Origin: Eledone cirrhosa
Lineage: Eukaryota
Length of the DNA: 64,000 nt
NCBI GenBank assembly: GCA_964016885.1
Contig: OZ024742.1
Coordinates: 101,990,001-102,054,000 of the forward strand
Direction: 5' to 3'
Of the stretch, positions 1,396 through 64,000 are shown piece after piece. The stretch's first letter is position 1. Every line of letters starts with the position of its first letter. The notes beneath the pieces were generated by a model. That model had not been told where the DNA came from. It searched no databases and saw only the letters and a program-made list of their open reading frames with translations. The translations under genes were made by a program, and so were the position numbers.

Positions 1396-1580
1396 ATACA
1401 AAAGTGAGTTACAAACGAAACGAAATTTAATTTCGTTTCGTTATTTGTTTTTATCGTCTCCGCTGAACCGGTACGTACTCACGCTCTATGCAAATTAGTC
1501 TGCCCACTACTAATTTTCATAGAAAAAGCATATAACGATATGTGCTTTTACGATTCTCTAGAAAGGCCGGAAGATAGGTA

Positions 1581-1625
1581 AATATTGCTGATGAGATGTA
1601 ACAACATCGAAACTAGTCCAATATT
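1581..1625 (+). ncRNA. Type I hammerhead ribozyme (array A, copy 1)
   Basis: AATATTG-CTGATGA-GATGT aaca ACATC-GAAA-CTAG-TC-CAATATT: 7-bp stem I, intact core, 5-bp stem II, palindromic minimal stem III, GUC site. Confidence 0.93.
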
Positions 1626-2046
1626 CCTTGTCTGGCTTTCTGGAGAATAGAGGAAAGGTGTTTCCTCGAAAACCAGTATGACTCTAAAAACCGGTTTGTC
1701 TGTGTGTTTACATACAGAATAGCTGGACACTCACAGTAAAGTGTCCAGTGAAAAACTCGGTACATCTACATATGTACACGTGTGTGTATTCATATGCATA
1801 CTAGTATTTCAGTATACATATGTGGATGTACATTTTTAATTTAATTGTTTAAGCGTCAGTCATACAAAAGTGAGTTACAAACGAAACGAAATTTAATTTC
1901 GTTTCGTTATTTGTTTTTATCGTCTCCGCTGAACCGGTACGTACTCACGCTCTATGCAAATTAGTCTGCCCACTACTAATTTTCATAGAAAAAGCATATA
2001 ACGATATGTGCTTTTACGATTCTCTAGAAAGGCCGGAAGATAGGTA

Positions 2047-2091
2047 AATATTGCTGATGAGATGTAACAACATCGAAACTAGTCCAATATT
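2047..2091 (+). ncRNA. Type I hammerhead ribozyme (array A, copy 2)
   Basis: Same sequence as 1581-1625, offset +466. Confidence 0.93.
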
Positions 2092-2512
2092 CCTTGTCTG
2101 GCTTTCTGGAGAATAGAGGAAAGGTGTTTCCTCGAAAACCAGTATGACTCTAAAAACCGGTTTGTCTGTGTGTTTACATACAGAATAGCTGGACACTCAC
2201 AGTAAAGTGTCCAGTGAAAAACTCGGTACATCTACATATGTACACGTGTGTGTATTCATATGCATACTAGTATTTCAGTATACATATGTGGATGTACATT
2301 TTTAATTTAATTGTTTAAGCGTCAGTCATACAAAAGTGAGTTACAAACGAAACGAAATTTAATTTCGTTTCGTTATTTGTTTTTATCGTCTCCGCTGAAC
2401 CGGTACGTACTCACGCTCTATGCAAATTAGTCTGCCCACTACTAATTTTCATAGAAAAAGCATATAACGATATGTGCTTTTACGATTCTCTAGAAAGGCC
2501 GGAAGATAGGTA

Positions 2513-2557
2513 AATATTGCTGATGAGATGTAACAACATCGAAACTAGTCCAATATT
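2513..2557 (+). ncRNA. Type I hammerhead ribozyme (array A, copy 3)
   Basis: Same sequence as 1581-1625, offset +932. Confidence 0.93.
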
Positions 2558-2978
2558 CCTTGTCTGGCTTTCTGGAGAATAGAGGAAAGGTGTTTCCTCG
2601 AAAACCAGTATGACTCTAAAAACCGGTTTGTCTGTGTGTTTACATACAGAATAGCTGGACACTCACAGTAAAGTGTCCAGTGAAAAACTCGGTACATCTA
2701 CATATGTACACGTGTGTGTATTCATATGCATACTAGTATTTCAGTATACATATGTGGATGTACATTTTTAATTTAATTGTTTAAGCGTCAGTCATACAAA
2801 AGTGAGTTACAAACGAAACGAAATTTAATTTCGTTTCGTTATTTGTTTTTATCGTCTCCGCTGAACCGGTACGTACTCACGCTCTATGCAAATTAGTCTG
2901 CCCACTACTAATTTTCATAGAAAAAGCATATAACGATATGTGCTTTTACGATTCTCTAGAAAGGCCGGAAGATAGGTA

Positions 2979-3023
2979 AATATTGCTGATGAGATGTAAC
3001 AACATCGAAACTAGTCCAATATT
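2979..3023 (+). ncRNA. Type I hammerhead ribozyme (array A, copy 4)
   Basis: Same sequence as 1581-1625, offset +1398. Confidence 0.93.
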
Positions 3024-3244
3024 CCTTGTCTGGCTTTCTGGAGAATAGAGGAAAGGTGTTTCCTCGAAAACCAGTATGACTCTAAAAACCGGTTTGTCTG
3101 TGTGTTTACATACAGAATAGCTGGACACTCACAGTAAAGTGTCCAGTGAAAAACTCGGTACATCTACATATGTACACGTGTGTGTATTCATATGCATACT
3201 AGTATTTCAGTATACATATGTGGATGTACATTTTTAATTTAATT

Positions 3245-3293
<49 letters not shown>

Positions 3294-3319: not shown

Positions 3320-5019
3320 AAGGTAATAGAGAGGGCACTGACTGAGACAAACGCGGCCGGAAAAGAAATCACCAAGTCCCTTAAATTACACGACCGAACC
3401 GAACCTTTAAGGGTAAAGACCCCGCACTTTACCCTGAAGGACCATAAGGGAAACTTCCTCAACAAACCATCAGTCAGAGTTATCAACCCCACTCGTTCTG
3501 ACATAGGCTCTATCAGTAAGAAGATCCTGGATAGAGTTCTACCATCATTGCGGGCAGCCTCACCACTTCCACTCTGGAGCAGAACATCTGAGGCAATATC
3601 ATGGTTCCAAAAGTTACCCGATAAACACCACACTCGCTTCCTGCAACTCGACATAGAAAACTACTATGCCTCTATCTCGGAGCCCCTCCTGAAGGACGCA
3701 ATTAACTTTGCCAGGAATTTTACCACCATTACCGATGCTGAGCAAGTTGTTATCCTCCACGCTCGTAAGACCTTTCTATACCACGATGGATCTTACTGGA
3801 TCAACAAGAAATCTCAGACCCCATTTGACGTTAGCATGGGGGCGAGTGACTCGGCTGAAATTAGCCACCTTGTGGGCCTGTACATCCTACATAACCTGAA
3901 GAACCTCTTTACCTGCCTAACGGGAGGTTTATACCGAGACGACGGCCTCTTCGCCCTGCATAAGGTTAACCCCAGAACCACCGATGGGTTTCGGAAAAAC
4001 TTAAGCTCTTCTCTAATCTAGGATTTAGTATAACTATAGATTCTAATTTGACTAGGGCCAACTTCTTAGATGTCACTCTCGACCTAGATACTTCCCTCTA
4101 TTACCCGTACCACAAACCTAACGAGTCCCTTAAATATATTAATGTTAATTCAAACCACCCCCAAAACATCACTGATAACCTAGTAAAAAGCGTCTCTATT
4201 AGAATATCTGGCCTCTCCGCCAACAAAGATATTTTTAATGCATCTGCCTCCTACTACAATGACGCCCTCGCCCGTAGCGGATTTAAAGATAAGATAACTT
4301 ACCTAGAAACCACCGCAAGATTGCAGAGGAGGAATAGACATAGGCAGATTAGCTGGTACAACCCTCCCTTCAATAGAGAGGTATCTACTCCGATAGCTAG
4401 GATTTTCTTCACTTTACTGAAATTACACTTCCCCATACAACATAGGTACCACACCATCTTTAATAAGAACACAATAAGACTGTCTTACTCCACCACACCT
4501 AACCTAGCTAGGAATATAGCCAACCACAATTCTAAAAAATTAAATAAGCCAACCACCTCCGAACCCAATCCCCGGACTGGGGCTCTATGTAATTGCCTAA
4601 ATAAGGAAGCATGCCCACTTGAAAACAAATGCCTCACAAATGATATCGTATACAAATGCGATGTCATCTCAGGCACCGAGGATTGCAAAAAAACTTACAT
4701 CGGCATGACCTCCAACAACTTTAAGACCCGTTGGTATGCCCATACCCACTCCTTCAGAAGACCGGATAAATCAAATCAGACAACACTCGCCTCCTACGTT
4801 TGGGACCTCAAAAGGAACTCCACCCCCTTCACGCTTAAATGGAAAATACTCCAGAAAGCGTGCTCTTACAACGGAGGACACAAGGGCTGCGACCTTTGTA
4901 TTTCAGAGAGCTACGAAATTTTATTCGCCAAGGGCCCGCTACTGAACAAACTCTCTGAACACTGCCCGAACTGCATGCACAAGAACTTTGCAACTTCAAA
5001 CACTTTAAGCCAGTGTTAA
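3320..5019 (+). pseudogene. PLE reverse transcriptase + GIY-YIG endonuclease, N-truncated, one frameshift near 4000-4020
   Basis: RT motifs LKDHK..F, RVINP, LDIENYY, MGASDSAEI, GLYRDDGL, NFLDVTLD; WYNPPF; CNCLNKEAC (CxCx5C linker reported for Naiads); IVYKC...YIGMT; CDLC; LLNK. ORFs 3218-4021 and 4048-5019 join across a frame change. Confidence 0.92.
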
Positions 5020-5199
5020 AGCCCGATGGCTAAAAACGACCTCCCCCTATTGGCCCCTATACCTCCTCCCCACCCTACCCCCACCCCTCCTCAACCTGAA
5101 ATACGGCCACTATGGTTATGTGAGTACCTCCTTCCTATCTACATTTTCTGCCTGTAGAGGTGTTTTTATGTGCCTGCATATATGCGTATATTTATTGAG

Positions 5200-5340
5200 T
5201 ACTTATTTATTTGTATGTGTATATATTTGTTTGTATGTGTGTATATGTATGTGTATGTGTATATATATATATATGTTTGTGTGTATATGTGTTTTATGTG
5301 TGTATATTTATGTATGTGTATGTATATGTATATATGTATA

Positions 5341-5390
<50 letters not shown>

Positions 5391-5440
5391 TGTATATATG
5401 TGTATGTATGTGTAGGTATGTATGTATGTATGTATATATG

Positions 5441-5499
<59 letters not shown>

Positions 5500-5518
5500 T
5501 GTGTATGTGTGTGTGTGT

Positions 5519-5555
<37 letters not shown>

Positions 5556-5789
5556 GTGTGTGTGGGCAGGTGTGTATATATATGTGTGTGTATGTATATA
5601 TATATATATATATATAAATATATATATATGTGCGTGAGAGAGAGTGTGTATATATATTTGTGTGTGTGTATGTGTGTATGCGTGTATATATGTATATATG
5701 TGTGTATATATGCGTTATATGTCTGTATATATATGTGTATCTTTATGTATAGGTCTGTGTATGTATGTGTATATTTGTATATATATGGA

Positions 5790-5824
<35 letters not shown>

Positions 5825-5911
5825 TTATACATATGCATGTGTATGTGTGTGTGTGTGTATATATATCTATATATGTGTGTGTGTGTATATATGTGTGTGT
5901 ATATGTATGTG

Positions 5912-5942
<31 letters not shown>

Positions 5943-6038
5943 ATGTGTATATATAGGTTGTATATATATGTATGTATATGTATGTATATATATGTATGTA
6001 TATGTGTGTGTGTGTATATATGTGTGTGTATATGTATG

Positions 6039-6071
<33 letters not shown>

Positions 6072-6260
6072 ATGTGTATATATATGTGTGTATATATGTA
6101 TATATATATATATATATATATGTGTATATGTATGTTTGTATATATGTTTGTATGTATATATATATATGTATATATATGTGTGTATATGTATGTATATGTG
6201 TGTATATTTATATATATATATATGTATGTATATGTGTGTATATTTATATATATATATATT

Positions 6261-6327
<67 letters not shown>

Positions 6328-6545
6328 ATATGTGTGTATGTATTTGTGTATATATGTATGTATGTGTATGTGTGTGTGTATATGTGTGTGTGTGTATATA
6401 TATATATATATGTATGTGTATATATATATATGTGTGTGTATGTATATATATATGAATATATGTATGAATGGTGTATCTCTCTCTCTCTCTCTCTCTCTCT
6501 ATGTATGGTGCTTTTTCCTTATATATGTGTATATGTGTGTGTGTG

Positions 6546-6578
<33 letters not shown>

Positions 6579-6704
6579 GTGTGTATATATATTTGTTTAT
6601 GTATATATATATATATACATGTGTGTGTGTTTGTGTGTGTGTATATGTATATATGTGTGTGTATGTGTATTTTATATATATGTATGTATATGTATGTATG
6701 TATG

Positions 6705-6735
<31 letters not shown>

Positions 6736-6744
6736 ATATGTATG

Positions 6745-6787
<43 letters not shown>

Positions 6788-6922
6788 ATGTGTATTTATG
6801 TGTATATGTATACACATGTATATTTGTGTTTGTATGTATGTATGTGTGTGAGTGTATTTATATGTGTATATATGTGTGTGTGTGTGTGTGTATATATATG
6901 TATGCGTGTGTGTATGTATATA

Positions 6923-6969
<47 letters not shown>

Positions 6970-7062
6970 ATATATATATATGTATATATATATATGTGTG
7001 TATGTATATGTATGTATATAAATATATTTTTATATATATGTGTGTGTGTGTTTATGGCTGCA
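5200..7062. repeat. Compound (TA)/(TG)/(TATG) microsatellite inside the PLE 3' UTR
   Basis: Seen directly; its distal part is mirrored in the inverted arm 440-1395. Confidence 0.95.
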
Positions 7063-7546
7063 CGCGAGTGTGTGAGTGAGTATGTTTTTTTGTGAATGTG
7101 TCTGTTGATTTTTGGCATATAGTTGATTAGTTTAAGAGAAGTTCGAAGATAATTGTAAGATATGCACTCAGTATTTTGAATCTGTCTACAGAATTCTCTA
7201 AACCTTTGTCACTTAGTAGAACCTTAATGACTTTAGCTTTTAAAGAATCTCCCTTTTCTTTAATTCTATCTACCATGACTGACCCCCCACTGATCTTATA
7301 GACATCTGTTAGCTTAAGAGAAACTTAATGACAAGGAATGGTATGCCATCCGGAACCTGTTTATAGAATTCTGTCTGCCTTTGTTACTCTAAAAACATAA
7401 ATAAATAAAAATAAACTATAGCTTTGTAGAATTAGCTTTTAATGAATTCCCTTTTCTATCAACCAATGACCTACACCCATCCCACTCCCCACCCTCTCCT
7501 ACCACTTGTAGAGACCTATGAATACCATTTTTATTTTTTGATACCC

Positions 7547-7597
7547 AGATTCCTGATGATTTCTAAAGAATGAAACAGTTCTAGTCCTGTAGAATCT
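7547..7597 (+). ncRNA. Type I hammerhead in the pLTR of PLE #1
   Basis: AGATTC-CTGATGA-TTTCT aa AGAAT-GAAA-CAG ttctagtc CTG-TA-GAATCT. Confidence 0.88.
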
Positions 7598-7679
7598 CAT
7601 CTATATTAAAACTTTTATACTCTGCTATGTATTGAGTACCTTACTTACTGTGGTTACCTCCGATTCAACCCGGAATAAC

Positions 7680-7727
<48 letters not shown>

Positions 7728-7996
7728 AGAAAAAATGAAACGAAATTTCATTTCCCACTCTTAGTACGGCTATTACTTAAATATAAGTATGTATACATAC
7801 ATACATATATGTATACAAACGTACAGTAGTATGTATATATATATATATACATACATGCACACATATATATATGTACGTATGCTTTCACCGAACATTTATT
7901 ATAATGCTCGGTGTGTATGTAAACAAACATCCCATATTAAGCCGTACGTAGTGTCTAGCAACCATCGTTGCTCGTTTGTTCAACACTGACAAAGGA

Positions 7997-8039
7997 ACTC
8001 TGTACTAGTTTCAAACTTATTAGCTATCGTCAGCAACGT
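7997..8039 (-). ncRNA. Type I hammerhead (family B), slightly mutated
   Basis: Reverse complement ACGTTG-CTGACGA-TAGCT aata AGTTT-GAAA-CTAG-TA-CAGAGT. Confidence 0.8.
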
Positions 8040-8442
8040 ATACCTTCCTGCCAGATTGTTGAACGTATATACTTACCGTATGCATATTAACGGCTGAGTA
8101 GCCCAATTTGCATATCGAGTGGGATGTTTGTTTACAAACACACCGCACATTATAATAAATGTTCGGTGAATCCATACGTACATATATATATGTGTGCATG
8201 TATGTATATATATATATATACATACTACTGTACGTCTGTATACATATATGTATGTACGTGTACATACTTATATTTAAGTAACAGCCGTACTAAGAGTGGG
8301 AAATGAAATTTTGTTTCACTTTTTCCCTTTATCGTTTTCGGTGCACCCGGCCGATTAACCCACTCGATATGCAAATTCGGCTACTCAGCCGTTAATATGC
8401 ATAAGGTAAGTATATACGTTCAACAATCTGGCAGGAAGGTAT

Positions 8443-8485
8443 ACGTTGCTGACGATAGCTAATAAGCTTGAAACTAGTACAGCAT
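8443..8485 (+). ncRNA. Type I hammerhead (family B)
   Basis: ACGTTG-CTGACGA-TAGCT aata AGCTT-GAAA-CTAG-TA-CAGCAT. Confidence 0.87.
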
Positions 8486-8707
8486 TCCTTTGTCAGTGTT
8501 GAACAAACGAGCAACGATGGTTGCTAGACACTACGGTTTAATACGGGATGTTTGTTTACAAACACACCGAGCATTATAATAAATGTTCGGTGAATCCATA
8601 CGTACATATATATATGTGTGCGTGTATGTATATATATATACATACTACTGTACGTCTGTATACATATATGTATGTACGTGCACATACTTATATATATATA
8701 TATATAT

Positions 8708-8884
8708 AAAATTTAATATAGAAATGGCTTCTACATGACTAGAACTGTTTCATTTGAAAGAAATCATCAGTCTTGTAGAAGCCATTTCTATATTAAATTT
8801 TGTATATACTCTATTAATGTATTGATTACTTCATCTACTGTGGTTACCCCCCCCCCCCCCCCCCCCGATTAAACCCGGGTCTCA
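8708..8884. mobile_element. Fold-back PLE pLTR remnant related to PLE #1, with an HHR core on the minus strand (~8725-8770)
   Basis: 28-bp inverted repeat 8708-8735 / 8774-8801. The minus strand reads CTGATGA-TTTCTTTCAAAT-GAAA-CAGTTCTAGTCATG-TA-GAAGCC. The tail resembles 7598-7680. Confidence 0.8.
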
Positions 8885-37891: not shown

Positions 37892-37944
<53 letters not shown>

Positions 37945-37989
37945 GAGAGTAAAACAAAGAATCCTTTAATACATCAAAAGTTTTTATTA

Positions 37990-38027
37990 GCCGACAATGT
38001 TTCGTCCTATTAAGGACTCATCAGGGC
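37990..38027 (-). ncRNA. Type I hammerhead (PLE #2 pLTR, sense)
   Basis: Reverse complement GCC-CTGATGA-GTCCT taat AGGAC-GAAA-CATTG-TC-GGC. Confidence 0.92.
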
Positions 38028-38370
38028 AATCAAAACAACAAGAAGTAATATCGGCAGATACAAGCCGGAAGCTCCGAAGAATATGGAGTGTACATACACT
38101 AAAGTCTTGCAAAAATATATGATAATAAAAATAAAAATAAAAATAATAAAAATATATAATAAGAATAACTAAGGATGTATATAATATTAAGAACCATATT
38201 ACAAATATAGTCCAAAGCAACTAACCTAAATCTAAACAAATTTGGTTATATAGAGCAGGAATTATATATAACACAATGTAATATAACATAATACATTATA
38301 ATAATATACCTTTACCAACATTAAAATTACAATTAAAAATCAAAAGGTACAATATATACATGTATATATG

Positions 38371-38428
<58 letters not shown>

Positions 38429-39292
38429 ACAATACGCACATCTATGTTCAACTACACAAATTAAGCCTTATTAGAAATTTGAATATAAAAATAAGCATGA
38501 TAAGAGTGAAAATAATACCAATACATCTACCCAATATACATGAGGCAATAATATGATATAATTACAAGAGACACATATAATAAATAATAAACAATAAAAT
38601 TATATAATTCAATATAATATAATAGATAATAGAAACAATATAGATGTCACAATAAAATACAATGATAATATGTTAACAGTGTACTAACATTTACAATAAA
38701 CAATATATACAAATCGATTCATACTGGGTTACAGAGTAAATGAGGAAAAGTAAATTATATAATACTCAAAAAAACACTATAATGGTACAGGAAAAATTAT
38801 GATGGTACAGAAAAAAATATACAGACATCTTACATGATATGTAAAGTCTAAATATCATAATGTTACATATAATGAACAGTAAGTAATAAGGATCAATATT
38901 ACAATATTACAAAAATACAGACATCTTACATGATATATAAAGTTTAAATATCATAATGTTACATATAATGAATAGTAAGTAATAAGGATCAATATTACAA
39001 TACAATATAAGATGAATCTGAATAAAATAAAAAATAAAAATAGAATTAAAAATAAAATTAATAATAAAAATAAAAATAAAGATAATAATAGAATAACGTA
39101 AGTGGCGTAAAGTGTGTAATCTTATATATATTAACAAGGTGTAATAGTGAAAACATAGATATGGTACAGTAGCCAAATGATTATGAGAGCTAGAATGAAG
39201 AGTCATCAAAAACCAATGGTAATAATGATGATAACAATAATGTTGGCAAACAAAAGAACCTAAACTAAAAACTAAGTAATGGAATATATCTG

Positions 39293-40494
39293 CTAATGGG
39301 TACAATTTGTACTACTAGAACGTTTGGGTTTATAATAAAAATAAGAATTAGAAATGGCGTGGGGGCAAGAAGAGAATATCTCAGACTTTCTATTAAGTAA
39401 GGATATGCTAGAGAAAATTATAGAGTGTGTCTCAAGTATACAGAGATTACAAAACTTACTATGTGTAGAAAGGTGGTTAGAGCGTGCTACTAAACGCCAG
39501 TTAAGGCTATATGGTATATAAGCTCCCTTAAGATCCCAGATATAATGCGCTAAAGAAGTAGAATTCTTAAACCTAACATGTTTGAAGTTACAGATATGAG
39601 AGTTAAACCTAGTCTTAAAAGTGTTTGAAGTAGATCCTATATAAGTTCTATTAGAGGAATTAGTTATAACTTCGCAAGCGTAGACAATGTTCTTAGAAAG
39701 GCAGTTACCGTTTAGAGGGCAGTTAGCACTCACTCTACAATTGCACTTCCGGGTGTTATTGGTTGGCTCGAGTGGTGATGTATTACACGTAGGACCTCTA
39801 TTAGATAAGGACTGTTCTGGTGGTAAAGCATTGTCAGATCCGTTCAGACTAGTAGTATGTAGAGAGGAGAATCCATCCCTAATTTTCCTATTATTAGTGC
39901 TAGCTAAATGAGAACTAATATTAGGGGTGGTAGAGAATGAGAGTTTAATAACATTTTTATTAAAAATACCATGGTATTTATGAGAAGGGGGGAAATATTT
40001 CTCTAAGATAGTGAAGAAAGACCTAGGGATATTAGTTGATACATCCTGATTATATGGCGGGTTGAAATAAGTATTTAATCGCCTTCTATTTTTATTCTTA
40101 CCGACCCTACCTTTATCAAATGTCCCACCGTCGAGACTAGGGTTACTATCAGGATTAGTTGAAGCCACATTCATAGAATCAGCCATAATTTCGTTATGTC
40201 TATTATAGTTTCTACCTCCAGTAGATCTGCTGCTGTCCGGAATCCCTTCAAGAGGATTAGGGCCAATGATAGGATCAGTAGGAGCAACATTATTAGAATA
40301 AGATCCAGCAAAACCAACACCAATGCGTGAGCGCACAGGGGGTTCAACTTGTCTCCTAGAGGTATTATATTTGCTATTACGAGTCCGGTGGGTTAACTTA
40401 TGGGTCGGTTCAGATACACCTATATAATTTCTACGGTTACTATATTTGCTACTCCCATTCATGGCCATGTTATGTGATATAATGTTATTATTAT
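39293..40494 (-). pseudogene. C-terminal part of a Naiad-like PLE ORF (linker + GIY-YIG); RT lost by truncation
   Basis: YFNPPY, KYFP..HKYHGIFNKN.IKLSFSTTPN, CNCRVSANCPL, IVYAC...YIGST, CNLC, LLNRKSE..CPH. The first ~39 aa of the called ORF come from the inverted pLTR. Confidence 0.9.
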
Positions 40495-40581
40495 TTTTGC
40501 AAGACTTTAGTGTATGTACACTCCATATTCTTCGGAGCTTCCGGCTTGTATCTGCCGATATTACTTCTTGTTGTTTTGATT

Positions 40582-40619
40582 GCCCTGATGAGTCCTTAAT
40601 AGGACGAAACATTGTCGGC
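40582..40619 (+). ncRNA. Type I hammerhead (PLE #2 inverted pLTR)
   Basis: GCC-CTGATGA-GTCCT taat AGGAC-GAAA-CATTG-TC-GGC. Confidence 0.92.
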
Positions 40620-40766
40620 TAATAAGAACTTTTGATGTATTAAAGGATTCTTTGTTTTACTCTCTTAATTTTTTGGCTCTGTTTAACTGCATTGAGCTAT
40701 ACCTTTTACTGTCATTTCTATAACACGAAGAGGGTGGTTAACTCCAACACGCTCCAGTATTCTAAT

Positions 40767-40832
<66 letters not shown>

Positions 40833-42020: not shown

Positions 42021-42089
42021 ATATGTATATATTTATACATATAGATTTATACATTTATATTTATACATATACATTAAGATCCATAACAA

Positions 42090-42985
42090 AAAATAGAAAC
42101 AGACATATACTACAAGCCCACAGACTCCAAGCAATATCTTCCTTTCAACTCTTGCCACCCTAGACACGTTAAAATTAATATTCCCTACAACTTAGCCAAG
42201 AGAATCTGTACTATAGTTTCCAATAAAAACATCTGCTACTTACGGCTACAAGAACTAAAGGACACACTCATAGGCAGGGATTACCCTGCATCACTAATTG
42301 ACAATGGAATCCAACGTGCCCTAAAACGCAGTACCCAGGACCTTAGACACCCTAAAGTAAATCAACCGAAACTAAAAGCTCTTCCATACATCTCCACACA
42401 CAACCCCATCAACAATGAGACCTTTGACACCATCCTCCAGAACATCCCTGTGTTGAAAAAGGACCATAGAATGAACCAAATCCTACGAACACACGATACC
42501 ATAAAGAGCAAAAGACAATCTAAGTCTATGAAAAACATCCTAACACATGCCAAAGTACTGCCAACCACAACAACGAAACCCACAGTAAAAGAAATGCGAT
42601 AGACCCAACTGTGGCATATGCATCAACCTAATAGAGGGTTCGGAATTCTATTTAAAAGAAGGACAACGTTTTATAGTAAAACACAATTTCACATGCGCAT
42701 CAGAAAATCTAATATATGTATTAATTTGCTCAGGTTGTCGAGAACAATACATAGGCCAGACCAAAAACAGCCTCCGCCAACGCATGACTGTCCATAGATC
42801 CCAAATTAAAATACGGGAATACAGGAAAATACCACTGAGTGAACACATTGATACCTGTGCCGCCCAAAATCATCCCAACTTCAGAATCTTTCCCCTCTAC
42901 AAATTTAAAGATAATGCCACCCACACCCAGCGTATCAGCAAGGAATCTCACTTTATTAACAAATACGGACCCCCGTCTAAACACT
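42090..42985 (+). pseudogene. Neptune-like PLE fragment: RT thumb, Zn-linker and GIY-YIG, frameshift near 42590
   Basis: Manual translation ETDIYYKPTDSKQYLPFNSCHPRHVKINIPYNLAKRIC.../KCDRPNCGIC...FTCASENLIYVLICSGCREQYIGQT..LRQRM..H. Confidence 0.88.
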
Positions 42986-44178
42986 TCTCCCTAAGACGAA
43001 CCCACAACATACACACGTCAACATACATACCTACATCAGCATACATCTCTATCCACATATAAACACAATGACATACGTAAACACACATGTTCTATGGTGC
43101 AACACAAATATACACAAATTTGCATACCTTTTGATGTCTATAGATATAAACGTGCCGACACACACACATACACATACGCACACATGCATTGCACACTGAT
43201 GGGCACATACATATTTGTACACAAGTATTCCAATACGCCAAGGCCTAATGGATTCCCCTTGCGGTACGTACAATCTGGACACTCACACACACCTTGGTAT
43301 TATGCCAATACTATATATCATTTCACACCTTTTATTATTAAGGTTTTTGATGTTCTATTGAGAGAATCGTTTTTACTGAAAATATCGAATAATGTACACC
43401 ATTTTTACCAGTATCACAAAAATACTGGTCCACCCACACCCACATACACATGCGTACATTAACATACAAAGAGACATATACACACACACACTTCTCCGTA
43501 TAAGACAAGAGCTGAAAAATATCTTTTAACATGTTAAAATATCCCCACACACGTACAGACACATTCCTACTGACCATCCCTCTACCACGAATTACTCTGC
43601 TACACACACACACACACACGCGCGCGCACACACACTTGTCTTAATAGGCATTTGAACTGTCAACAGGCTGCGGTTCGCACACACATCCCTGCTGACCATT
43701 ATCACAACAACGAACCTCTTTACTACTACTACTACTACTACACACACACACACACACACATATTTGTCTTGAAAGACTTATTTTTCAGTGACTTCTCAAT
43801 CAAGCCGAGACAAACCTACATTTGGCGCAAAATCAATTTTTAACATTCACATGACCTCTACCGACCAATCAAAATTGTTTTGACCACAAGAATTTTTTCA
43901 TACATCTGGAGCCACTTTTTTTTACATAAAACAGGTAGAATTTCCCAAACTAATCAGATTAGAGCAAACATAACGGGCGCTCTATCTGAAAATTATTTTT
44001 GAAAAGCATTAGAAATGCGCAACCGGTAAAACTTAAAACCAAAACTGAATACTAACCAATACTATTACTAATTTTTACTTATTCCTAATTAAACTATTTT
44101 TCACTGGGAACAATTTGTCAGCATTTTCTTTTCCTTTTACCAATATATCATAACTCGTGTGTTATACCTCTATTCTTT

Positions 44179-61696: not shown

Positions 61697-61698
<2 letters not shown>

Positions 61699-62042
61699 AG
61701 GCACATGGCTTAGTGGTTAGAGCATTGGCCTTGCAATCGAAAGGTTGTGAGTTCAATTCTCAGACCGGGTGATGTGTTGTTTCCTTGAGCAAGACACTTT
61801 ATTTCACATTGCTCCAGTTTACTCAGCTGTAGAAATGAGATGATAGGTACTGCGGACCCTATCATTCCACTGCAAAGTGGTCGTGGAGGTGCCACGGCAA
61901 AAAAGCACCCAGCACTCACTGTAAATGAGGTTGGTGTTAGGAAGGGCATCCAGCTGTAGAAATCAAGCCAGAATCAGTTCCCGTCCCACCCTTGCAAGCA
62001 GGGAAAAGTAGACATAAAATGAAATGAAATGATGATGATGAT
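61697..62042 (+). mobile_element. tRNA-derived SINE S1
   Basis: Close copy of 14510-14902 with an internal deletion in the tail. Confidence 0.85.
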
Positions 62043-62056
62043 ATATATATATATAT

Positions 62057-63745
62057 ATTGGAATAAATGCTCTGAAATAGCGATATATATGTGAATATAG
62101 ACATAGAATATTCGAAAATATTCTGTATGTTTATAATAAACATTTTGAAGACCTAATCGCTATAGAATAGAATACGTCACGTATTACAATTAGATTCTCG
62201 ATAAAAGCAAGGGAAGTAATCTACGCGTTTCATTCTTATTAGAAATCTTCAGGACTACATATCCAGTGCTTTTATCGAGAATGACACAGCTAGAGACTTA
62301 TAGAATACTTAGCTGTGTACAGGAACTGGTTTGAAAGAGCGGTTGCCGGTCCGGCAGAAATTAGAAATTGGAATAAATGCTCTGAAATAGCGATATATAT
62401 GTGAATATAGACATAGAATATTCGAAAATATTCTGTATGTTTATAATAAACATTTTGAAGACCTAATCGCTATAGAATAGAATACGTCACGTATTACAAT
62501 TAGATTCTCGATAAAAGCAAGGGAAGTAATCTACGCGTTTCATTCTTATTAGAAATCTTCAGGACTACATATCCAGTGCTTTTATCGAGAATGACACAGC
62601 TAGAGACTTATAGAATACTTAGCTGTGTACAGGAACTGGTTTGAAAGAGCGGTTGCCGGTCCGGCAGAAATTAGAAATTGGAATAAATGCTCTGAAATAG
62701 CGATATATATGTGAATATAGACATAGAATATTCGAAAATATTCTGTATGTTTATAATAAACATTTTGAAGACCTAATCGCTATAGAATAGAATACGTCAC
62801 GTATTACAATTAGATTCTCGATAAAAGCAAGGGAAGTAATCTACGCGTTTCATTCTTATTAGAAATCTTCAGGACTACATATCCAGTGCTTTTATCGAGA
62901 ATGACACAGCTAGAGACTTATAGAATACTTAGCTGTGTACAGGAACTGGTTTGAAAGAGCGGTTGCCGGTCCGGCAGAAATTAGAAATTGGAATAAATGC
63001 TCTGAAATAGCGATATATATGTGAATATAGACATAGAATATTCGAAAATATTCTGTATGTTTATAATAAACATTTTGAAGACCTAATCGCTATAGAATAG
63101 AATACGTCACGTATTACAATTAGATTCTCGATAAAAGCAAGGGAAGTAATCTACGCGTTTCATTCTTATTAGAAATCTTCAGGACTACATATCCAGTGCT
63201 TTTATCGAGAATGACACAGCTAGAGACTTATAGAATACTTAGCTGTGTACAGGAACTGGTTTGAAAGAGCGGTTGCCGGTCCGGCAGAAATTAGAAATTG
63301 GAATAAATGCTCTGAAATAGCGATATATATGTGAATATAGACATAGAATATTCGAAAATATTCTGTATGTTTATAATAAACATTTTGAAGACCTAATCGC
63401 TATAGAATAGAATACGTCACGTATTACAATTAGATTCTCGATAAAAGCAAGGGAAGTAATCTACGCGTTTCATTCTTATTAGAAATCTTCAGGACTACAT
63501 ATCCAGTGCTTTTATCGAGAATGACACAGCTAGAGACTTATAGAATACTTAGCTGTGTACAGGAACTGGTTTGAAAGAGCGGTTGCCGGTCCGGCAGAAA
63601 TTAGAAATTGGAATAAATGCTCTGAAATAGCGATATATATGTGAATATAGACATAGAATATTCGAAAATATTCTGTATGTTTATAATAAACATTTTGAAG
63701 ACCTAATCGCTATAGAATAGAATACGTCACGTATTACAATTAGAT
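62057..63745 (-). mobile_element. Retrozyme-like tandem array C: ~5.45 x 310 bp, one hammerhead per unit
   Basis: TTGGAATAAATGC at 62058, 62368, 62678, 62988, 63298 and 63608; copies look identical; (TA)n flanks. Confidence 0.9.
62216..62258 (-). ncRNA. Type I hammerhead (array C copy 1; others at 62526-62568, 62836-62878, 63146-63188, 63456-63498)
   Basis: Reverse complement GTAGTC-CTGAAGA-TTTCT aata AGAAT-GAAA-CGCG-TA-GATTAC. Confidence 0.9.
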
Positions 63746-63826
63746 ATATATATATATTATGAAGAGAGAAGAAACATTTAGATATAATTAGTAATAAAAT
63801 GTATCATACCTAAACTGTTCCTAAAT

Positions 63827-63914
63827 TCCTCGACTACGTAGTTTCGTGGCATAAACAAAAACAATATATCAAAGATATAGAGTCCTTGCGAGGTCTGCCG
63901 ACTTATCAAGAGGA
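63827..63914 (-). ncRNA. Degenerate hammerhead with a long stem II
   Basis: Reverse complement TCCTC-TTGATAA-GTCGGCA...TGCCAC-GAAA-CTACGTAG-TC-GAGGA (two core substitutions). Confidence 0.55.
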
Positions 63915-64000
63915 TACCTCATTTTACTAGTCTCAAGAACGCGTCTACACGACGTGAGAAAGAATCCCAAAAGGCGGAGGGGGAGATAGTCACGCGATAT

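What the first reader, a model, noticed from the sequence alone, without database searches (positions are those of the whole stretch)
62057..63745. Array C (310 nt x 5.45) and its ribozyme similarity to the Naiad #1 pLTR
The HHR sits at the tip of a perfect 16-bp stem (ATTCTCGATAAAAGCA/TGCTTTTATCGAGAAT). Other hairpins are TAGAATATT/AATATTCTG, AATACGT/ACGTATT, ACACAGCTA/TAGCTGTGT and TGCCGG/CCGGCA. Its stem II (TTTCT-aata-AGAAT) closely matches that of the PLE #1 HHR (TTTCT-aa-AGAAT). This hints at derivation from, or dependence on, that Naiad family (inference from a short match).
Basis: partly seen in the sequence, partly recalled or inferred. Interest (0 to 1): 0.8.

Follow-up and report, generated by a model that had tools for sequence, protein, structure and literature searches.

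The report
Hammerhead retrozyme with Penelope-type ends
This repeat is one copy of a very young, abundant non-coding jumping element that carries a predicted self-cutting RNA motif; its copies have the two fixed ends typical of Penelope-type retrotransposons, so it is likely copied by one of their enzymes from a small, probably circular RNA, but which Penelope family does the copying is not settled.

Summary
Confirmed: 62057-63745 is 5.45 identical 310-nt units between (TA)n tracts, with one type I hammerhead per unit on the minus strand at the tip of a 16-bp stem. A unit 28-mer has 14,067 exact hits in the genome. It is a metazoan non-LTR retrozyme. Most mapped copies have two back-to-back arms: 53 of 53 paired ends are one long plus one short end, 35 nt apart, which is the Penelope 'tail' footprint. 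Both arms share one haplotype in 39 of 42 insertions, and private variants are fixed across up to 24 units. This favours rolling-circle copying of one RNA monomer; the RNA and its cleavage are untested. Its ribozyme is the nearest to C's (8 of 9 proximal pairs; 1-5 in 13 unrelated sets), but nothing else is shared, its tail is 67 nt, and an equally young Neptune-like family has a 39-nt tail. Derivation or dependence stays open. The scan found this 310-nt family before on other DNA of this genome. New here are the partner test, the sister families C2/C3, and a neighbouring 591-nt array family without a hammerhead.

The parts
62057..63745 (-). One-armed family C retrozyme insertion, 5.45 identical 310-nt units; predicted RNA is the minus strand
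62057..62091 (-). 35-nt tail between the long start site (62057, used by this insertion) and the short start site (about 62092; 62083-62092 is ambiguous because of an internal AT run)
62194..62282 (-). 16-bp carrier stem (62194-62209 with 62267-62282) enclosing the ribozyme, repeated every 310 nt; kept by compensatory changes in C2/C3
62216..62258 (-). Type I hammerhead, copy 1; predicted cleavage between 62222 and 62221
62526..62568 (-). Type I hammerhead, copy 2
62836..62878 (-). Type I hammerhead, copy 3
63146..63188 (-). Type I hammerhead, copy 4
63456..63498 (-). Type I hammerhead, copy 5
62042..62056 (.). Left (TA)n target tract
63746..63756 (.). Short (TA)n tract at the truncated inner end, followed directly by array D
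3320..7680 (+).
7547..7597 (+). PLE #1 hammerhead (stem II 7560-7571); its 67-nt tail follows at 7614-7680

Best explanation
Array C is one insertion of a young non-coding retrozyme whose 310-nt RNA is predicted to cut itself at a hammerhead, likely closes into a circle, and is likely written into (TA)n tracts by the reverse transcriptase-endonuclease of a Penelope-like element. Shown: the dispersed arrays, the (TA)n targets, the two fixed outer ends, the back-to-back arms and one haplotype per insertion. Inferred: transcription, cleavage and ligation; nicks on both DNA strands, each priming cDNA, one at the long site and one at the short site 35 nt away; several turns round one template; joining of the two cDNAs at a short microhomology. 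This copy kept only the long-site arm. The partner is some (TA)n-targeting PLE: I put Hydra-type PLE #1 at about 0.35, the young Neptune-like family at about 0.3, and another family at about 0.35.
For: 14,067 exact hits of a unit 28-mer, control 0. 962 long-end and 1,191 short-end junctions with (TA)n. 53 of 53 convergent end pairs are long plus short, 0 long-long, 0 short-short. In 16 loci picked without regard to ends, 10 of 10 two-armed insertions with both ends in view show the same. Frangieh 2024 (PMC11167929) shows two adjacent RT start sites on both strands and calls the resulting tail unique to PLEs. PLE #1 (3 of 3 pairs matched) and the Neptune-like family (6 of 6) show the same long/short pairing. 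Arms agree in 39 of 42 insertions against a chance of 0.10 among 18 haplotypes; variants seen in one insertion only are fixed in 19-24 units. Only 1 of 104 inner ends lies at the cut site, so the template reads through it. The fold is kept with compensatory changes across C/C2/C3: 14 of 47 named pairs, 0 of 500 shuffles. RNA-sense A>G is 6 of 18 array-fixed changes but 3 of 51 single-unit changes, p 0.008.
Against: No RNA, circle or cleavage was observed. In the main haplotype stem II has a U.U pair at its base and stem III is minimal; the axolotl motif with a U.U pair cleaved weakly as a monomer (PMC7229834), and 8 of 9 Xenopus dimers did not cleave. In vitro, the anole PLE did not need hammerhead cleavage and used unprocessed RNA. 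Two insertions are not homogeneous: L120 has one variant in the first of two units of both arms, and L111 repeats two variants seven units apart, so mixed multimer templates or local duplication also occur. Family D makes two-armed multimers with no hammerhead core. 70 of 176 listed ends had no partner. The 40 loci were picked for having long and short ends. The covariation rests on 8 related sequences and a structure derived from them.
Confidence: 0.72

Rival explanations
1. PLE machinery inserts the arrays, but from long linear read-through transcripts of existing arrays; no circle is needed and the ribozyme is incidental.
For: Unprocessed RNA is the substrate in vitro. Mixed units in L120 and L111. 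Hammerhead-less family D is also multimeric and two-armed.
Against: Private variants fixed in every unit of both arms need a one-unit bottleneck followed by re-multiplication. A>G excess is in fixed, not single-unit, changes. Array-fixed substitutions in the ribozyme fall at N7, in loop II, or keep or restore pairing (too few for a test).
Confidence: 0.18
2. One reading: C's ribozyme comes from the PLE #1 (Hydra-type) lineage, by descent or by capture of the ribozyme module, and C depends on that family's protein. This can hold together with the best explanation.
For: 8 of 9 proximal pairs shared; single-comparison p 0.0008-0.02 depending on the background rate. Best local match in the window, 0 of 200 shuffles (the shuffles do not hold the catalytic core fixed). 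C2/C3 share the CAG/CTG stem III with PLE #1. PLE #1 is young (median 98.5% among 10 long frames).
Against: Post hoc: with about 13 families compared, and several retrozyme families that could have matched, chance is about 0.01-0.25. No other homology; start-site modules do not align better than shuffles (136 of 1000 reach the score); tail 67 against 35. No PLE frame is attached to C2 in 30 loci.
Confidence: 0.35
3. A short inserted piece was expanded in place by unequal crossover, as proposed for Xenopus retrozymes; the arrays are satellites born from pLTRs.
For: Model in Li et al. 2026. The seven-unit repeat of variants in L111.
Against: Both arms are multimeric with non-integer lengths and fixed outer ends at dozens of dispersed sites; single-unit changes are only 51 in about 150 kb, which leaves little time for local growth to a median of 7.8 units.
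Confidence: 0.07
4. The identical units are an assembly artefact of collapsed or polished repeats.
For: Perfect identity in the window.
Against: Haplotypes differ between loci and are locus-specific, and single-unit variants persist. Four public runs from four studies hold the unit with the same variant sites.
Confidence: 0.03

Closest known systems
Metazoan non-LTR retrozymes (Cervera and de la Pena 2020, PMC7229834; parts 2-4 of 6 read and searched, supplements not seen); closest motif: axolotl HHR_Amex2
   Same: Tandem non-coding units of a few hundred nt, low GC (34% here), one type I hammerhead each, U.U at the base of stem II, highly paired fold, PLEs in the same genome.
   Different: Two-armed insertions with two fixed start sites and (TA)n targeting are not in that main text (0 hits for inverted, tail, microsatellite, head-to-head, octopus, cephalopod). 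Expression as circles is shown there and untested here.
Vertebrate retrozymes as PLE derivatives (Li, Clavereau and Pollet 2026, 10.64898/2026.07.22.740005; parts 1-3 of 5 read, supplements closed)
   Same: A PLE link is proposed, and C co-occurs with young PLEs.
   Different: There the link rests on co-occurrence and pLTR homology, and arrays grow locally. Here pLTR homology is limited to the ribozyme core, and the link rests on insertion ends.
PLE tail and internal RT initiation (Frangieh et al. 2024, PMC11167929; parts 1-3 of 4 read)
   Same: Two adjacent start sites bounding a 30-40 nt tail, both strands extended, AT-rich targets.
   Different: Shown for an autonomous Poseidon element on a linear RNA; here a non-coding multimer.
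Hydra-clade PLEs versus Naiads (Craig et al. 2021, PMC8557442; abstract, section 11 and passages read, supplements not seen)
   Same: PLE #1 has the Hydra hallmarks: C-terminal EN, RWR (RWK-like), DKT, CxCX5C, CxxC and CxH, hammerhead, (TA)n.
   Different: Naiads have an N-terminal EN and no canonical hammerhead; PLE #1 fails both.

Membership tests
Non-LTR retrozyme | Type I hammerhead in each tandem unit | tested here: met
   Five copies with core, stems I-III and a GUA site; not listed by Rfam
Non-LTR retrozyme | Tandem unit of about 150-450 nt, GC under 50%, non-coding | tested here: met
   310 nt; 205 of 310 A+U; no frame of 150 aa or more in the array; shorter frames not examined
Non-LTR retrozyme | Dispersed high-copy family with a highly paired fold | tested here: met
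   14,067 hits; z -4.8; compensatory changes
Non-LTR retrozyme | Target-site duplication longer than 4 bp, where present | tested here: inconclusive
   Flanks are (TA)n, so no duplication can be read
Non-LTR retrozyme | Self-cleavage of the transcript | not testable with these tools
   Needs in vitro transcription
Non-LTR retrozyme | Expressed as unit-length linear and circular RNA | not testable with these tools
   No RNA holder listed; contigs cannot show circles
PLE-mobilised non-autonomous element | Two fixed RT start sites (tail at one end only) with an inverted arm | tested here: met
   53 of 53 pairs; 10 of 10 unselected
PLE-mobilised non-autonomous element | Homology to the pLTR of an autonomous PLE | tested here: inconclusive
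   28-column ribozyme match to PLE #1 only; only three PLE families compared
Naiad (for PLE #1) | GIY-YIG endonuclease N-terminal to RT | tested here: not met
   RT first, GIY-YIG C-terminal
Naiad (for PLE #1) | No canonical hammerhead | tested here: not met
   Hammerhead in the pLTR directly before the long frame in 4 of 6 copies printed
Hydra clade (for PLE #1) | C-terminal EN, RWK-like and DKT motifs, CxCX5C linker, CxxC and CxH motifs, hammerhead, (TA)n target | tested here: met
   Read in the 758-aa frame of L155 against section 11 of PMC8557442
Hydra clade (for PLE #1) | Placement in an RT tree with reference Hydra elements | not tested
   No reference sequences fetched

The most novel reading that the evidence does not exclude
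Family C is a retrozyme caught in the act: a single edited RNA circle is copied round and round by a two-sided PLE enzyme starting at two fixed sites, and its ribozyme core was taken from the Hydra-type PLE whose protein it hijacks, while a neighbouring 591-nt family does the same trick with no hammerhead at all, through an unrecognised ribozyme or another route to circles.
Probability: 0.2. Interest if true: 0.8.

Novelty: new variant of a known kind. Interest (0 to 1): 0.55.

Why it matters
That PLE enzymes copy retrozyme circles into tandem DNA is proposed in the papers read here but not shown, and one of them favours local satellite growth instead. This family gives exact start sites, single-template haplotypes and named candidate enzymes (a Hydra-type and a Neptune-like family with long open frames), so the step can be tested in the published in vitro PLE assay. 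It also shows that a shared ribozyme stem is a weak guide to the partner.

Tried and rejected
A DNA search of the genome with the whole unit found nothing because common words are skipped; pattern searches replaced it. No RNA holder listed; this is no evidence either way. The 340-nt self-overlapping contigs in X4-X6 are what a tandem repeat gives and were not counted as circles. Rfam gave no hit for C or D ribozymes. The idea that the 80% relative in L038 was a PLE pLTR failed: it is the older retrozyme family C2, with no PLE frame attached in 30 loci. Start-site modules of C or C2 against seven other families: none clearly above shuffles (C against PLE #1 136 of 1000, against Neptune-like 108 of 1000; the best, C2 against B, 14 of 1000 on a TA-rich stretch). 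A GAG about 20 nt after the short site in several families was seen by eye and not tested. Array D as the missing second arm was rejected: it has the same orientation class as C and its own start site. The bacterial promoter scan is not informative. Alignment A1 had one row out of phase and was not used. Literature searches listed no paper on a cephalopod retrozyme or on tails in retrozymes; most subscription papers are not in that library. Left out of counts: L046 (older copy) and arms under 1.9 units from the variant tally; arms under 1.2 units from the concordance count (10 of 52 insertions).

Full report
Observation. The array is as described: 5.45 identical units of 310 nt at 62057-63745 between (TA)n tracts. 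Four of the five named hairpins are perfect and one has an imperfect end pair. The hammerhead lies on the minus strand, five times, at the tip of the 16-bp stem; the predicted cut is between 62222 and 62221. The unit folds better than all 100 shuffles on either strand. The host looks like an octopus-type genome; that is my inference and comes from no call.

Family. A 28-mer of the unit has 14,067 exact hits in the 3.0-Gb genome, control 0. Junctions with (TA)n occur at two places in the unit: the long end (962 hits) and the short end about 35 nt inside it (1,191 hits). On contig C1 I took the 100 listed short ends and the 76 of 100 listed long ends that lie in the same range. All 53 convergent pairs within 20 kb were one long and one short; 70 ends had no listed partner. 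In 16 loci chosen without regard to ends, 11 were two-armed, and all 10 with both ends in view were long plus short. Frangieh et al. (PMC11167929) show that a purified PLE protein extends both DNA strands and starts at two adjacent internal sites, and they call the tail between them unique to PLEs. PLE #1 (3 of 3 pairs that my patterns matched in 30 loci) and a Neptune-like family (6 of 6 in 13 loci) show the same pairing. The window copy has only the long-end arm.

Template. In 56 fetched loci there were 52 two-armed insertions, median 7.8 and up to 24.2 units; 40 of the loci were picked for having both ends. Of 42 insertions with both arms at least 1.2 units long, 39 carry the same haplotype in both arms. 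The 3 others differ at one site, two of them next to the inner junction. There were 18 haplotypes, so chance agreement is 0.10. Variants seen in one insertion only are fixed in all units of both arms, for example over 24 units in L133, 22 in L111 and 19 in L139. That needs a one-unit template copied many times. Only 1 of 104 inner ends lies at the cut site. Polarity is relative to the window haplotype and the numbers are small; reading this as A-to-I editing rests on recalled knowledge. Against a pure monomer circle: L120 has one variant in the first of two units of both arms, and L111 repeats two variants seven units apart.

Structure. Older sister families C2 and C3 (2,952 hits of a 19-mer) are about 65% identical to C over the whole unit. 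They keep the carrier stem, stems I and II and the 3' hairpins by compensatory change: 23 of 76 predicted pairs, and 14 of 47 named pairs with 0 of 500 shuffles as high (8 related sequences, structure derived from them). Several of their cores are damaged. No PLE frame was attached in 30 C2 loci.

The partner question. These are the Hydra hallmarks; Naiads have the reverse order and no canonical hammerhead (PMC8557442). The family is young: many 758-aa frames among 150 scored hits, and median 98.5% identity among 10 long frames. Its ribozyme is the nearest to C's: 8 of 9 proximal pairs, against 6 for an older relative and 1-5 for 13 other sets, including 1 for C2 and 3 for C3. The same stem II outside C was confined to PLE #1 and one close relative in 30 of 30 loci examined, out of 11,861 hits. 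A single comparison gives p 0.0008-0.02; after allowing for the families compared it is about 0.01-0.25. Nothing else is shared. Tails are 35 nt in C and C2, 67 in PLE #1 and 100 in the second Hydra-like element of the window. A Neptune-like family is as young (784-aa frames, median 98.9% among 9), also ends at (TA)n, has a 39-nt tail and showed no hammerhead core at its 3' end. Whether tail length follows the enzyme or the RNA is unknown. So a shared origin of the ribozyme core is possible (about 0.35), and the working partner is unresolved.

Known and new. This is a non-LTR retrozyme by every sequence feature I could test; cleavage and circles could not be tested. The two-armed, tailed anatomy is not in the main text of PMC7229834 or of the 2026 preprint, and searches listed no paper on it. 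Supplements were not seen and may bear on this. Earlier agents of this scan reached the same reading for this family on other DNA; those are unchecked notes and not independent support.

Verdict. Real feature; new variant of a known kind; interest 0.55.

Noticed in passing
window 63757-64000, continuing to L031:3627: Array D: 591-nt unit, 3.17 copies, abutting array C. 4,267 hits of a 26-mer. Two-armed with two fixed outer ends about 170 nt apart in (TA)n. The minus strand folds at z -5.2, the plus at -1.3. No CUGANGA core on either strand, no Rfam ribozyme hit, and no HDV-like or twister-like match on the minus strand in a rough scan.
   Followed up: partly
window 1396-3249: Array A: 466 nt x 4.0 identical units with an HH9-like hammerhead on the plus strand; tail about 66 nt.
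   Followed up: partly
window 7725-8710 and about 52750: Family B: two-armed hammerhead element with a 56-nt tail; its ribozyme has the same geometry as C's.
   Followed up: partly
L038:4380-4715; L078, L088, L091, L092, L106, L223: Older sister families C2 and C3 of array C, 313-322 nt, with different ribozyme stems and the same fold.
   Followed up: yes
window 42087-43500; L238-L250: Neptune-like PLE family with 784-aa open frames, about 99% identical, 39-nt tail, no hammerhead core seen at its 3' end.
   Followed up: partly
window 37942-40770: Second Hydra-like PLE fragment (minus strand) with inverted pLTR, hammerheads at 37986-38030 and 40579-40623, tail 100 nt.
   Followed up: partly
G000 genome-wide: 60,612 hits of one hammerhead geometry, control 31, and 5,100 of another, control 16: many ribozyme families, including an abundant family E with a 36-nt tail (L209-L234).
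   Followed up: partly
tails of PLE #1, A, B, C, E: A GAG triplet lies 19-22 nt after the short start site in five families; absent from the Neptune-like tail. Seen by eye, not tested.
   Followed up: no
window 63745: The array stops at the foot of the 16-bp carrier stem, as if copying stalled there; one case, not tested across loci.
   Followed up: no
window 61697-62000: High-copy repeat left of the array with a tRNA-like 5' part, probably a SINE (label recalled; high depth).
   Followed up: no
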